From Escherichia coli (GTDB taxonomy: Bacteria; Pseudomonadota; Gammaproteobacteria; Enterobacterales; Enterobacteriaceae), in the NCBI RefSeq assembly GCF_003334765.1, contig NZ_QOWT01000026.1: a stretch of DNA of 57,965 nucleotides. One strand, written 5' to 3'. The position numbers are program-made. The first letter of the stretch is position 1. Each line of letters begins with the position of its first letter. Shown here piece after piece: positions 15,001-18,000 of this stretch.

Positions 15001-18000
15001 CAGTATCAATATTGGTAATCTGATCATTATCAACTTCCAGACTTGCACCAGACGCTGAACCGCTTAGTGCCAGCAAAACACCCAGCGTCAATCTACTGAA
15101 TTTCGTTGTCAGTCCAGAGGATTTACGCAAATTAACCGTCGATGTTTTACCTGCCCTGCGAGTTAATTCCGAGCAGGCCTGAAATACCTGTAGAGTGCAA
15201 TTCCATATCACGCGATAGATTCTATTCATATAAACGCTCCATATACAAACAATACAGCCACGAAAGAGATGAGTCGTCAGACATTAAAAATGAAACTTAT
15301 TAAATTGTCAGAGGTCTGTATTGAGTGTTAGTTGGAGGTGGGAAGGTGTCAATTTGGCTAATTTGCTAATGCTTTCGAATTGATAGATTAAAAATTGCAT
15401 AGTTCTTATTTTATTTAAATATGAACTATGAGTTATTGTTGCTTAATAAGAAAACTGTTTCTTTCAATAGGAAAATTATCATCATCATATTTAACAAAGA
15501 ATAGCACTAATTGCTAAAAATCGAAGTTTATTAAACCCCTTTTGCATCCATTAGTGTCTTTAGGAATATTCGCTATAAAATAAGGGTTGTGCTTAATGCT
15601 TTAAGAAAAATAGCAATTTTCCCTTGAATATAGTACTGGTGATGGAACGATGAATCTGCAAGCTGGCTTTTAACAAGCCAGCTCTAAAAGAAGGGAAATA
15701 AGAATAACTATACTCAAAAACTAACAGCCACGGTCATCATGATGTGGCTGTCAATGAAACTATAACCCAGGCGCTTTCCATAACGACGTCGTCAGTCCAT
15801 GATCAACCAGCCCCAGCTGATCCTGATAAACTGCCTGCCACTTATCGCGTGAATCCTGATAAAGTTCATGCTTTTCCGGGTCTGGTGTGTGCGTCCGTTC
15901 CCAGCGAACCAGGCGTTCTCCGGTTTCTGCCATTGATGAAAAAATTCCGGCACCGACGCCAGCTGCAATGGCACATCCTAATGCAGTGGCTTCTTTGACC
16001 ACCGGAATATTGACGGGTAATCCCGAGACATCAGCGAGAATTTGACTCCATAATTTCCCTTTTGAACCTCCGCCTGCAAAGACTAACGATGAAGGATGAA
16101 TATTCGAGAAATCAGCAATTTGCTGCAAGTTACACGCTGATACAATCGCCGCATTTTCTTCCAGCGCACGGAACAATGTCGCTTTGTTACATTTATCCGG
16201 GTCAATGGACAAGTTAATAAAGGAAGGCGCAGCGTGATACCAGGTTTTAAAGCGCATTCTGTCGGAGAAGATCGGCATTACGCCCCACGACCCAGGCGGC
16301 ACCCGACTGGCCATCTCTTCCAGCAGCGTATAGGTGTCGATGCCTAAACGTTCGGCAATCAGTTTTTCTTCGGCACAGAAAGCATCGCGGAACCAGCGCA
16401 TGGTGAGTCCGGTAAAAAAGCTTATAGATTCAGCTTGTACCATGCCAGGAATAACATGAGGATTAACGCGCACGTTCATTTCTGGGTCTGTCACCGGCGC
16501 GGCTAAATTTACAACTTGCTGCCAGAATGTGCCGCCAAGAACCGCGGTTTGTGCCGGACGCACAACGCCTAACCCAAGGCAACCAAGCTGCACGTCGCCT
16601 CCTCCAACGACCACCGGAGTGCCCGCCTTCAGACCGCAGAGTTCCGCCGCTTGTGAACTTACCACGCCCAGCAATGTGCCGGTTTCTTTGACAGGAGAAA
16701 GAATATCGGCACGTAGGCCAGCCATATCCAGCAATGCAGGTTTCCAGTCACGGGTGGTTAGATCAAGAAGTCCCGTGGTGCCAGCGTTAGAGGGATCCAC
16801 CGCCAGTTCGCCGCTGAGCATATAGGCCAGCCAGTCGCTGATCATGGTGATGGTTGATGCCTGACGGTAAATATCGGAACGATGGTGCGCCAGCCAAAGT
16901 AATCTGGGGATGGCACTTAAAGCCAGTGTTTGTCCGGTCGCGCGATAAACTTCGTTTTCAAAGGTATTGTTGTGCAGTTCTTTAAGTTCGCTAACTTCGC
17001 GTGCCGCTCTGGCATCCACATTGGCGCAGGCCCAGATCGGGGCTCCTTCATTATTATATAAAACAATGCCTTCACGCATCGAACATGCCGAAACGGCAGC
17101 GATATACTCCGGGGCTATGCCGGCGTTGTGCAGCGCCTGGCGCATACACTCACACGCCAGTTGCCAGTTTTTGTTGAGATCAAATTCCATAGAACCAGGA
17201 ACGTCCGGTACTGCCAGATGCCGCCACTCCGCCTGTCCCACTGCTATTTGATTGCCTTCCAGGTCGAATATCACAGCCCGAATACTTCCGGTGCCTGCAT
17301 CCAGCGCCATCAGGTAGTACTTTGATTCTGAAAGGGTAAAGAGTCGAGCCATTAGATTATCCTCGGCTTATGCGTTCTGTCTGTTCCTCTATACGTTCTC
17401 CATCATTCCCGGTAATAAGGTCATGCAAATTTAACTACGTAAAATCGCCGCTGCTGTGTCCTGATCGGTAACCAGTGCGTTGATATAACCGCCTTTCATT
17501 GCAGCGGCAATTGCTTCGGCTTTATTTTCTCCCCCTGCCACGCCAACCCGGACGGGTATGGTCTTCAGCGCGCTTAAAGGTAAGCCAATCAGTTCGTTAT
17601 GTATTTTGATATTCGTGACAACGTCACCTTTTGCATCAAAAAAGTAGCCTAAAATGTCGCCAACCGCCCCTTTTCGGCCAATCATTAACTGTTCGCCCTG
17701 GCTGATATAACCGGAGCGAATGATTGTCGCATCGTCCTGTTGACTCACAGCACCAATGCCGACAATCGCCACATCCGCTGCTTGCGCGGCTAACAGAACA
17801 TCTTTGACGCAATTTTCATTTTTTAGCGTACGGGCAATGTCAGCGGAGGATGCCCGCAACGGAGCCGGAATAATATTCACACTGCACGCCGCGTTAAGCT
17901 GCCCGATTCCCGTCATATAAGAACCGACGCCACCGGAGAGCGTGACCAGGCGAATTTGCTGTGACGAAATAAAACCACTTAAGCGTTGCAGCGTATTCAT

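What the first reader, a model, noticed from the sequence alone, without database searches (positions are those of the whole stretch)
15230..15759. 530-bp AT-rich non-coding stretch upstream of the autotransporter
The region between the autotransporter start and the lsrK 3' end is long, strongly AT-rich and has no ORF with coding signals. Such leaders upstream of large adhesin genes are typically H-NS-bound silenced promoters, so the intact adhesin may be cryptic under laboratory conditions.
Basis: inference. Interest (0 to 1): 0.3.

Follow-up and report, generated by a model that had tools for sequence, protein, structure and literature searches.

The report
Known H-NS-bound promoter island upstream of yneO
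The AT-rich 530-bp gap is the E. coli lsrK–yneO(ydeK) intergenic region, already published as an H-NS-covered "promoter island", and it also holds the lsrK terminator, a conserved core promoter for the adhesin gene and a strong MarA binding site; it is real but largely already explained.

Summary
Window 15230-15759 is a 530-bp non-coding gap of 32.1% GC in a 47.4% GC window, lying between lsrK and an intact 1806-aa ECSE_1600-family (yneO/ydeK) autotransporter gene.

It is an ordinary E. coli locus, present in about 4,200 of 5,426 complete genomes. It is 529/530 identical to K-12 MG1655 and 530/530 identical to ETEC H10407.

The H-NS idea is supported by published data on those near-identical sequences:
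- The region is one of 78 catalogued "promoter islands" and is marked H-NS-bound in all three ChIP studies compared.
- It is flagged as an H-NS site by genomic SELEX.
- It binds RpoD and RpoS holoenzymes in vitro.

- The lsrK intrinsic terminator (15716-15755).
- A highly conserved core promoter with 5'UTR, CTGACA-17-TTTAAT at 15283-15311.
- A near-consensus marbox (15501-20) that is a published MarA ChIP-seq and in-vitro target. It sits about 235 bp upstream of that promoter, so it fits neither class I nor class II geometry.

Silencing of the intact adhesin allele is inferred, not shown. Novelty: already known. The only open point is what MarA does here.

The parts
15760..17352 (-). lsrK (autoinducer-2 kinase), the upstream neighbour on the same strand
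   Evidence: ORF list; RefSeq annotation of identical or near-identical loci.
15716..15755 (-). lsrK intrinsic terminator: a 12-bp stem hairpin (15720-15755) running into a U5 tract (15716-15720)
   Evidence: ViennaRNA dG is -17.4 kcal/mol. The 146-nt 3' end folds with z = -3.87. The hairpin is invariant in 9 E. coli lineages. The consensus terminator scan missed it because the loop exceeds 8 nt.
15661..15683 (.). Second perfect 9-bp hairpin (AGCTGGCTT-5 nt-AAGCCAGCT) with no U tract on either strand; function unknown
   Evidence: The stem carries non-compensated substitutions in other lineages (15668, 15677), so it is probably not under structural selection.
15315..15659 (.). AT-rich 'promoter island' core with published H-NS occupancy and a dense set of overlapping sigma70-like signals on both strands
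   Evidence: PMC3661553 Table 1 gives 1596197_345. I mapped this to the window with an assumed +1975 offset from U00096.2 to U00096.3, so the limits are good to a few bp. My own PWM scan finds 56.6 promoter-like hits per kb against 24.2 per kb for the window. A/T tracts and TpA steps are about 2x and 1.7x the window rate. GC stays at 30.6-32.3% in all lineages despite up to 6% divergence.
15501..15520 (+). Marbox (MarA/SoxS/Rob site) ATAGCACTAATTGCTAAAAA, in reverse orientation relative to yneO
   Evidence: It has 1 mismatch to AYNGCACNNWNNRYYAAAYN. Chance expectation in the region is 0.012. It is the top-scoring site in the whole window (20.0 bits), above the marRAB marbox at 15.6 bits. The 15-mer gcactaattgctaaa is the MarA ChIP-seq site at yneO in ETEC H10407 and binds in vitro at 0.3 uM (PMC5684230). 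The H10407 spacer is 530/530 identical, and the published site centre maps to window 15512.
15283..15311 (-). Core sigma70 promoter P1 for the autotransporter: -35 CTGACA (15311-15306), 17-bp spacer, -10 TTTAAT (15288-15283); predicted TSS near 15276
   Evidence: It is the best PWM hit in the region at 11.6 bits. The same hexamers were assigned by Shimada 2014 to the RpoD-holoenzyme SELEX peak in this spacer. It is invariant in 8 of 9 lineages; the ninth has 1 SNP in the spacer. The TSS has not been mapped.
15230..15276 (-). Predicted ~47-nt 5'UTR with Shine-Dalgarno GGAG (15240-15237) 7 nt before the ATG
   Evidence: Read directly from the sequence. It has no significant structure (z = +1.43). 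The interval 15230-15320 has 2.2 variable columns per 100 bp, against 8.4 in the adjacent coding DNA. It is >=99% identical in 3072 of 4090 genomes.
9809..15229 (-). Intact ECSE_1600-family (yneO/ydeK) AIDA-I-type autotransporter gene, 1806 aa
   Evidence: NCBIfam NF011422 matches full length. It has an extended signal peptide. The K-12 copy is a frameshifted pseudogene.

Best explanation
The interval is the E. coli lsrK-yneO intergenic region and is a composite. Read in the direction of transcription (minus strand) it contains four things. (1) The lsrK intrinsic terminator, which uncouples the adhesin gene from the AI-2-induced lsrRK transcript. (2) A ~345-bp very AT-rich 'promoter island' that binds RNA polymerase at many overlapping promoter-like sites but is coated by H-NS in vivo. 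(3) Embedded in that island, a high-affinity MarA site. (4) At the island's proximal edge, a conserved sigma70 core promoter (CTGACA-17-TTTAAT) and a short unstructured 5'UTR with a good Shine-Dalgarno sequence for the autotransporter. The most likely mechanism is that an H-NS filament nucleated on the AT-rich core spreads over or bridges the core promoter. This would keep the adhesin gene silent or nearly silent in standard culture. Shown (published, on sequences 99.8-100% identical): H-NS occupancy, RpoD and RpoS holoenzyme binding in vitro, and MarA binding in vivo and in vitro. Inferred: that P1 is the real start site, that H-NS represses it, and that the intact allele in this strain is cryptic.
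For: Identity of the locus. Composition. H-NS occupancy in all three ChIP datasets, and promoter-island membership: PMC3661553 Table 1; that paper's abstract reports very low transcriptional output of such islands. H-NS genomic SELEX flag, RpoD SELEX peak and the promoter hexamers: PMC3946193. RpoS SELEX peak in the spacer: PMC5493296. My own PWM independently picks the same promoter as the best hit and finds 2.3x promoter-like density. The proximal 91 bp is far more conserved than the island core, both in 9 lineages (2.2 against 12-19 variable columns per 100 bp) and across about 4,100 genomes. The terminator hairpin is strong and invariant.
Against: I found no hns-mutant expression data and no mapped TSS for this locus; the TSS and ChIP supplements I tried were not held. 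All H-NS data come from K-12, where the gene is a pseudogene. ydeK was reported 2.2-fold up in a Cpx-regulon array (PMC2731931), so some transcription does occur. The strong conservation of P1 and the 5'UTR argues that the gene is expressed under some condition rather than permanently cryptic. In contrast, 8 of the 13 copies inspected (the window included) are frameshifted, stopped or truncated, which points to weak selection on the gene.
Confidence: 0.75

Rival explanations
1. Conditional, MarA-responsive control rather than simple silencing. MarA (or SoxS/Rob), made from the mar locus about 21 kb away in the same window, binds the marbox inside the H-NS-covered island. It then either counter-silences the adhesin promoter or activates or represses one of the island's internal promoters. 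This would tie adhesin expression to the antibiotic/stress response. It extends the best explanation rather than excluding it.
For: The marbox is near-consensus, unexpected by chance (0.012 expected) and the strongest in the window. It is a published MarA ChIP-seq peak with top-class in-vitro affinity on an identical sequence. It is retained in all 9 lineages; the variants (GCAT, GCACC) match forms seen in other '+++' MarA sites. Other MarA ChIP targets also lie in promoter islands, and some in loci I recall as H-NS-silenced: leuL<>leuO is in both tables, while H-NS silencing of yjjP<>yjjQ and ycgF<>ycgZ is from my own knowledge.
Against: Geometry fails the published operational rules, which are class I reverse at -56 to -85 and class II forward at -36 to -55 (PMC12052159). 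The site lies about -235 from P1 and 282 bp from the ATG. The only class-I-compatible minus-strand candidate (TTTCCT-17-TCTTAT, TSS near 15439) is weak (6.1 bits) and sits in variable sequence. No class II arrangement exists on the plus strand. The marbox is no more conserved than its surroundings (2 of 20 columns vary). No MarA-dependent expression change of yneO is reported in any paper found.
Confidence: 0.25
2. Functionally inert spacer. The AT-rich DNA is residue of horizontally acquired sequence kept AT-rich by mutation bias. H-NS, RNAP and MarA binding are by-products of composition, and the adhesin gene is decaying.
For: The island core evolves faster than flanking coding DNA (12-19 against 5-8 variable columns per 100 bp). 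798 of 4111 genomes are below 95% identical over the marbox-centred 91 bp. Independent IS1 insertions or deletions occur inside it. The gene is a pseudogene in 8 of 13 copies inspected. No relative was found outside E. coli-like contigs. The spacer is flagged as associated with a predicted foreign gene.
Against: The proximal promoter/UTR and the terminator are among the most conserved stretches of the 1.5-kb alignment. AT content is held at 30.6-32.3% GC across lineages. The marbox is far better than composition predicts.
Confidence: 0.2
3. The gap hides an unannotated small gene: a 30-codon ORF (15400 to 15308, minus strand) whose ATG lies 7 nt after a TAAAAT -10-like hexamer. That spacing would allow a leaderless mRNA.
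For: The ORF is open in all 9 lineages. Its 8 variable columns split into 5 synonymous and 3 non-synonymous. The ATAACT-17-TAAAAT signal scores 8.6 bits.
Against: There is no Shine-Dalgarno sequence. The sample of substitutions is tiny. Neither of its two variants looked up is present among about 15 billion predicted proteins. It is not annotated in MG1655. AT-rich DNA throws up such ORFs and -10-like hexamers readily.
Confidence: 0.05
4. Ag43-like phase-variable control of the autotransporter by Dam methylation/OxyR, or by slipped-strand repeats.
For: This rests only on analogy with agn43, another E. coli AIDA-I-type autotransporter (my own knowledge).
Against: The 530 bp contains no GATC site (1.5 expected), no homopolymer of 6 or more, and no tandem repeat.
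Confidence: 0.02

Closest known systems
E. coli 'promoter islands' (Shavkunov/Panyukov/Ozoline), specifically island 1596197_345 ydeK(-)/lsrK(-)
   Same: It is the same locus: the K-12 spacer is 529/530 identical. It is AT-rich, dense in overlapping promoter-like signals, binds RNAP, is H-NS-bound in all datasets, and lies next to a gene predicted to be foreign.
   Different: Here the downstream autotransporter is intact, whereas in K-12 it is a pseudogene. The published catalogue does not dissect the island into terminator, marbox and conserved core promoter.
H-NS-silenced cryptic adhesin loci of E. coli K-12 (ycgV, yfaL/ehaC and ypjA autotransporters; cryptic chaperone-usher fimbriae)
   Same: Each is a large adhesin gene preceded by a long AT-rich H-NS-bound spacer. 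ycgV and yfaL, plus several fimbrial operons, appear in the same promoter-island table. That these genes are cryptic in laboratory culture is from my own knowledge (Roux 2005; Korea 2010), not checked here.
   Different: No hns-derepression or forced-expression phenotype is published for yneO in the papers I could search.
MarA/SoxS/Rob regulon promoters (class I such as marRAB, class II such as lpxC)
   Same: It has a near-consensus marbox with demonstrated MarA binding. The core is almost identical to the ycgZ and ybjC marbox cores.
   Different: The marbox is about 235 bp upstream of the best promoter and 282 bp from the start codon, in reverse orientation. It therefore fits neither class by the published position rules. 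In marRAB, within the same window, the marbox sits 16 bp upstream of the -35 hexamer.
Counter-silencing of H-NS by AraC-family regulators (e.g. Rns/CfaD, VirF, ToxT, GadX; my own knowledge)
   Same: An AraC-family monomer binds inside an H-NS-coated AT-rich region, far upstream of the target promoter of a surface-structure gene.
   Different: This is purely an analogy. MarA has not been shown to counter-silence at this locus.

Membership tests
Promoter island (Ozoline laboratory catalogue) | Listed region of at least 300 bp with an extreme density of predicted transcription start points | tested here: met
   The K-12 spacer (529/530 identical) is entry 1596197_345 in Table 1 of PMC3661553. My own simple PWM gives 56.6 hits per kb against 24.2 per kb, which is in the top 5.6% of 530-bp windows. 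This is a cruder measure than the authors' PlatProm.
Promoter island (Ozoline laboratory catalogue) | RNA polymerase binds, but productive transcription is very low | not testable with these tools
   Published: RpoD and RpoS holoenzyme SELEX peaks lie in the spacer. Low output is stated for the class as a whole, not for this island individually.
H-NS-silenced (xenogeneic-type) promoter region | AT content well above the genome background | tested here: met
   32.1% GC against 47.4% for the window; core 24.3%; lowest 0.25% of windows.
H-NS-silenced (xenogeneic-type) promoter region | H-NS occupancy in vivo | not testable with these tools
   Published for K-12: marked 'A', meaning all studies (Grainger, Kahramanoglou, Oshima), in PMC3661553. 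A genomic-SELEX H-NS flag appears in PMC3946193. In the sequence, the best matches to the H-NS motif TCGATAAATT have 2 mismatches, at 15380-15389.
H-NS-silenced (xenogeneic-type) promoter region | Derepression of the downstream gene in hns mutants | not tested
   No data found; the supplement of PMC3064808 is not held.
MarA/SoxS/Rob regulon promoter | Marbox matching AYNGCACNNWNNRYYAAAYN | tested here: met
   15501-15520 has 1 mismatch, 0.012 expected by chance, and scores 20.0 bits on a PWM built from the other ChIP sites.
MarA/SoxS/Rob regulon promoter | MarA binds the site | not testable with these tools
   Published ChIP-seq peak and EMSA '+++' at 0.3 uM in ETEC H10407. The spacer is 530/530 identical, and the site centre maps to window 15512.
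MarA/SoxS/Rob regulon promoter | Marbox at a class I position (reverse, -56 to -85) or class II position (forward, -36 to -55) relative to a TSS | tested here: not met
   The rules are from PMC12052159. The site is about -235 from the best, conserved promoter P1. Only a weak, unconserved class-I-compatible candidate exists (TSS near 15439). There is no class II candidate on the plus strand. No experimental TSS was available, so a cryptic TSS cannot be excluded.
MarA/SoxS/Rob regulon promoter | MarA-dependent change in transcription | not tested
   No report in the searchable literature.
Dam/OxyR phase-variable autotransporter promoter (agn43 type) | Cluster of GATC sites overlapping an OxyR site in the regulatory region | tested here: not met
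   There are zero GATC sites in 530 bp.
Rho-independent terminator (for lsrK) | GC-rich hairpin immediately followed by a U tract just after the stop codon | tested here: met
   12-bp stem, dG -17.4 kcal/mol, U5 tract, starting 5 nt after the lsrK stop; invariant in 9 lineages.

The most novel reading that the evidence does not exclude
The high-affinity MarA site buried about 235 bp upstream of the conserved yneO promoter, inside an H-NS-coated promoter island, is a counter-silencing switch. Under mar-inducing stress (salicylate, antibiotics, bile), MarA/SoxS/Rob would disrupt the H-NS filament and turn on an otherwise cryptic 1806-aa autotransporter adhesin. That would be a non-class-I/II mode of MarA action, linking the multiple-antibiotic-resistance response to adhesion or aggregation.
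Probability: 0.15. Interest if true: 0.5.

Novelty: already known. Interest (0 to 1): 0.15.

Why it matters
It matters little beyond annotation. The residual value is practical. Anyone studying this widespread E. coli autotransporter (intact in this strain, a pseudogene in K-12, ETEC H10407 and an O157-like strain) should expect it to be silent in laboratory culture. They should also know that an uncharacterised, very strong MarA site sits in its control region. If MarA relieves H-NS silencing there, it would connect the mar antibiotic-stress regulon to surface adhesin expression, by a mechanism outside the classical class I/II scheme.

Tried and rejected
- **Consensus promoter/terminator scan.** It found no promoters and only one terminator-like site, inside lsrK. 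Its rules exclude TTTAAT (no A at position 2) and loops longer than 8 nt. I replaced it with my own PWM scan and folding.
- **Rfam at E <= 1.** It returned only meaningless eukaryotic lncRNA/snoRNA hits.
- **Scan of 100,044 species genomes with the autotransporter N-terminus.** It returned only two loci, 98% and 92% identical. They are labelled Nanosynbacter MAG and Marinomonas, most likely E. coli contamination. There was therefore no cross-species footprinting, and conservation analysis had to stay within E. coli.
- **TSS and H-NS ChIP primary data.** PMC4288677 is not held. PMC3064808 has no supplement held. The Sharma 2017 and PLoS Genet 2025 supplements do not mention yneO or lsrK.
- **Literature searches for ydeU, b1509, b1510 and for MarA combined with gene names.** Nothing further turned up.
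- **Transcription-factor consensus scans.** CRP, IHF and Fis gave no hits; the degenerate OxyR half-site pattern gave only two 2-mismatch hits at the 15398-15430 palindrome. No GATC sites and no long homopolymers were found.
- **14-5-14 palindrome at 15398-15430.** It is disrupted in most other lineages (15420, 15427), so I treated it as chance.
- **Small ORFs.** None is in public protein collections.
- **Class I/II marbox geometry on both strands.** Neither class is met.
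Full report
**1. Observation**

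The interval 15230-15759 runs exactly from the ATG of a minus-strand 1806-codon ORF (9809-15229) to the stop codon of a minus-strand 530-codon ORF (15760-17352). It is 530 bp long with 32.1% GC, in a window of 47.4% GC. Only 0.25% of all 530-bp windows are as AT-rich, and the core 15380-15560 is 24.3% GC.

No ORF longer than 30 codons lies wholly inside it. None of the four small ORFs I looked up (three ORFs, one in two variants) occurs in a collection of about 15 billion proteins. Rfam gives nothing credible. The large ORF matches NCBIfam NF011422 'ECSE_1600 family autotransporter' end to end (4175.9 bits, cut-off 2335). It begins with a typical extended autotransporter signal peptide, MNRIYRVIWN....

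**2. What the locus is**

A megablast of 15130-15860 finds the region in 4,230 of 5,426 complete E. coli genomes, always between lsrK and the ECSE_1600-family autotransporter. In K-12 MG1655 this is the yneO (formerly ydeK/ydeU, b4696) pseudogene-lsrK spacer, 1598087-1598616, with no annotated feature inside. The K-12 spacer differs from the window at one base, 15632. The ETEC H10407 spacer is identical at 530 of 530 positions. Published experiments on those two strains therefore apply directly to this sequence.

**3. Published evidence on this spacer**

- *Promoter island and H-NS.* Panyukov & Ozoline 2013 list '1596197_345 ydeK(-)/lsrK(-)' among 78 E. coli 'promoter islands'. They mark it 'A', meaning H-NS-bound according to all the ChIP studies they compared (Grainger; Kahramanoglou; Oshima). 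It is also flagged as associated with a gene predicted to be foreign (PMC3661553, Table 1). The paper describes these islands as binding RNAP and forming open complexes while giving very little full-length transcript. Assuming the +1975 coordinate shift between U00096.2 and U00096.3 (from memory, not verified), the island maps to about window 15315-15659.
- *RpoD SELEX.* Shimada 2014 found an RpoD-holoenzyme genomic-SELEX peak in the yneO<lsrK spacer. They assigned the promoter CTGACA-17-TTTAAT and flagged the spacer as holding a genomic-SELEX H-NS site (PMC3946193).
- *RpoS SELEX.* Shimada 2017 found an RpoS-holoenzyme peak in the same spacer (PMC5493296).
- *MarA.* Sharma 2017 found a MarA ChIP-seq peak at yneO in ETEC H10407, with site gcactaattgctaaa. 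Purified MarA bound it at the lowest concentration tested (PMC5684230).
- *Cpx.* ydeK appeared as 2.2-fold induced in a Cpx-regulon array (PMC2731931).

**4. Anatomy, worked out here and read along the minus strand**

*lsrK terminator.* Five nucleotides after the lsrK stop there is a 12-bp-stem hairpin (15755-15720) running into UUUUU (15720-15716). Its dG is -17.4 kcal/mol. The 146-nt lsrK 3' end folds with z = -3.87. The hairpin is invariant in nine E. coli lineages spanning 93.6-100% spacer identity. This is the lsrK intrinsic terminator. The right end of the 'leader' therefore belongs to lsrK, and read-through into the adhesin gene is unlikely.

*Second hairpin.* A perfect 9-bp hairpin at 15661-15683 lacks a U tract on either strand. 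It carries uncompensated substitutions in other lineages, and I assign it no function.

*AT-rich core.* My own sigma70 PWM finds 30 hits of at least 6 bits on both strands. That is 56.6 per kb against 24.2 per kb for the window, qualitatively reproducing the 'island' property. A/T tracts and TpA steps are enriched about 2-fold and 1.7-fold.

*Marbox.* Positions 15501-15520 (plus strand) read ATAGCACTAATTGCTAAAAA, one mismatch from the marbox consensus. A site this good is expected 0.012 times by chance in the region. With a PWM built from the other published MarA ChIP sites it scores 20.0 bits. That is the best in the whole 58-kb window, ahead of the marRAB operon's own marbox at 36164-36183 (15.6 bits). 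The published MEME site centre in H10407 maps to window 15512, and the ChIP peak centre maps to 15496.

*Core promoter P1.* The best promoter-like element in the region is -35 CTGACA (15311-15306), a 17-bp spacer, and -10 TTTAAT (15288-15283), scoring 11.6 bits. This is the same element Shimada assigned. It predicts a TSS near 15276 and a ~47-nt 5'UTR. The UTR is unstructured (z = +1.43) and has GGAG 7 nt before the ATG.

**5. Conservation**

In a nine-sequence alignment, the number of variable columns per 100 bp was as follows:

| Segment | Variable columns per 100 bp |
|---|---|
| Autotransporter N-terminal coding DNA | 8.4 |
| lsrK 3' coding DNA | 5.0 |
| Spacer overall | 11.7 |
| Proximal 15230-15320 | 2.2 |
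| 15521-15620 | 19.0 |

Across the genome collection, the proximal 91 bp is >=99% identical in 3,072 of 4,090 genomes, and only 4 fall below 95%. The marbox-centred 91 bp is >=99% identical in 2,215 of 4,111 genomes, with 798 below 95%.

The core promoter, the UTR and the terminator are therefore constrained. The island core drifts but keeps its composition, at 30.6-32.3% GC in every lineage. The marbox is retained in all nine lineages, with GCAC changed to GCAT in two and GCACT changed to GCACC in one. GCAT cores occur in other top-affinity MarA sites. However, the marbox is not more conserved than its neighbours.

**6. Mechanism**

The best-supported reading has three steps. The lsrK terminator isolates the adhesin gene. 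P1 is its sigma70 promoter. The AT-rich island immediately upstream nucleates an H-NS filament that covers or bridges P1 and keeps output low.

H-NS occupancy, RNAP binding and MarA binding are published facts for near-identical DNA. The identity of the TSS, repression by H-NS, and crypticity of the intact allele are inferences. I put this at about 0.75.

The role of MarA is open. By the operational rules used by the Grainger laboratory, class I sites are reverse-oriented at -56 to -85, class II sites are forward-oriented at -36 to -55, and sites more than 200 bp from a start codon are discarded (PMC12052159). This marbox is reverse-oriented relative to yneO, about -235 from P1 and 282 bp from the ATG. 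For comparison, the marRAB marbox in the same window sits 16 bp upstream of its -35 hexamer.

The only class-I-compatible minus-strand candidate is TTTCCT-17-TCTTAT, with a TSS near 15439. It is weak and lies in variable sequence. No class II arrangement exists on the plus strand. The possibilities are counter-silencing, control of an internal or antisense island promoter, or a fortuitous strong site.

**7. Rivals rejected or down-weighted**

- Ag43-type Dam/OxyR phase variation is excluded by the total absence of GATC. There are also no slippage-prone repeats.
- A hidden small gene is possible but weakly supported. The candidate is the 30-codon ORF from 15400 to 15308. It is open in all nine lineages, shows 5 synonymous and 3 non-synonymous variable sites, and has a -10-like TAAAAT 7 nt upstream.
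- An 'inert decaying spacer' reading fits the fast-evolving core, the IS1 hits and the frequent pseudogenisation. It does not fit the conserved P1/UTR or the quality of the marbox.

**8. Comparison with known systems, and verdict**

This is not a new feature. It is a catalogued promoter island and H-NS target, and a tabulated MarA ChIP target. It resembles other H-NS-bound spacers upstream of E. coli adhesin genes: ycgV, yfaL and several fimbrial operons are in the same table.

It was incomplete about the anatomy. The only unexplored element is the function of the mis-positioned, high-affinity MarA site.

Interest is low (0.15) and novelty is 'already known'. The most novel reading not excluded is MarA-driven counter-silencing of the adhesin, with probability about 0.15 and interest about 0.5 if true.

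Noticed in passing
window 36164-36228 versus 15501-15520: The marRAB control region lies in the same window, about 20.7 kb from the yneO marbox. It consists of a marbox at 36164-36183 (reverse), a 16-bp gap, -35 TTGACT and -10 TATTAT. These two are the only sites in 58 kb within 1 mismatch of the marbox consensus.
   Followed up: partly
L005 (NZ_AP027599.1), insertion at window 15545-15554; L004 (NZ_CP182142.1), junction at window 15415: There are two independent IS1 events inside the AT-rich island in other E. coli genomes. One is a simple insertion, with window 15545-15554 aligning on both sides of the IS1 (consistent with a target duplication), just right of the marbox. The other is an IS1-associated deletion removing 15414 leftwards into the autotransporter. 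The island looks like an IS1 target, and such insertions could activate or kill the adhesin promoter.
   Followed up: partly
window 9809-15229 and loci L001, L004-L006, L009, L011, L012, L015: The autotransporter is intact here and in 4 other genomes inspected. It is frameshifted, stopped or truncated in 8 others, including K-12, ETEC H10407 and an O157-like cattle strain. Repeated independent decay suggests weak selection on the gene, even though its promoter and 5'UTR are highly conserved.
   Followed up: partly
window 15308-15400 (minus strand): A 30-codon ORF (MQFLIYQFESISKLAKLTPSHLQLTLNTDL) is open in all nine lineages, with 5 synonymous and 3 non-synonymous variable sites. It has no Shine-Dalgarno sequence, but a TAAAAT hexamer lies 7 nt upstream of the ATG, so a leaderless mRNA is possible. 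It is absent from public protein collections and from the MG1655 annotation.
   Followed up: partly
L013 (JARKOR010000214.1, 'Candidatus Nanosynbacter' MAG) and L014 (NZ_JSEO01000039.1, 'Marinomonas sp.'): The only hits for the autotransporter N-terminus among 100,044 species-representative genomes are 98% and 92% identical contigs in a Saccharibacteria MAG and a Marinomonas assembly. These are almost certainly E. coli contamination or mis-binning in those public records.
   Followed up: no
window 15398-15430: A near-perfect AT-rich palindrome (14 nt arms, 5-nt centre, 13 of 14 complementary) is centred at 15414. It is present in the window and K-12 but disrupted at 15420 and/or 15427 in the other lineages, so it is probably chance.
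   Followed up: yes
window ~391-1415, 41413-42176, 49678-50911, 53622-55968: Several other stretches of the window are as AT-rich as the finding, with minimum 530-bp GC of 31-35%. They may be further H-NS-type islands and were not examined.
   Followed up: no
PMC5684230 Table 1 versus PMC3661553 Table 1: Two of the 33 MarA ChIP-seq peaks (leuL<>leuO and yneO) fall in catalogued promoter islands. Others (yjjP<>yjjQ, ycgF<>ycgZ) are at loci I recall as H-NS-repressed. This hints that MarA binding inside H-NS-coated DNA is recurrent.
   Followed up: no
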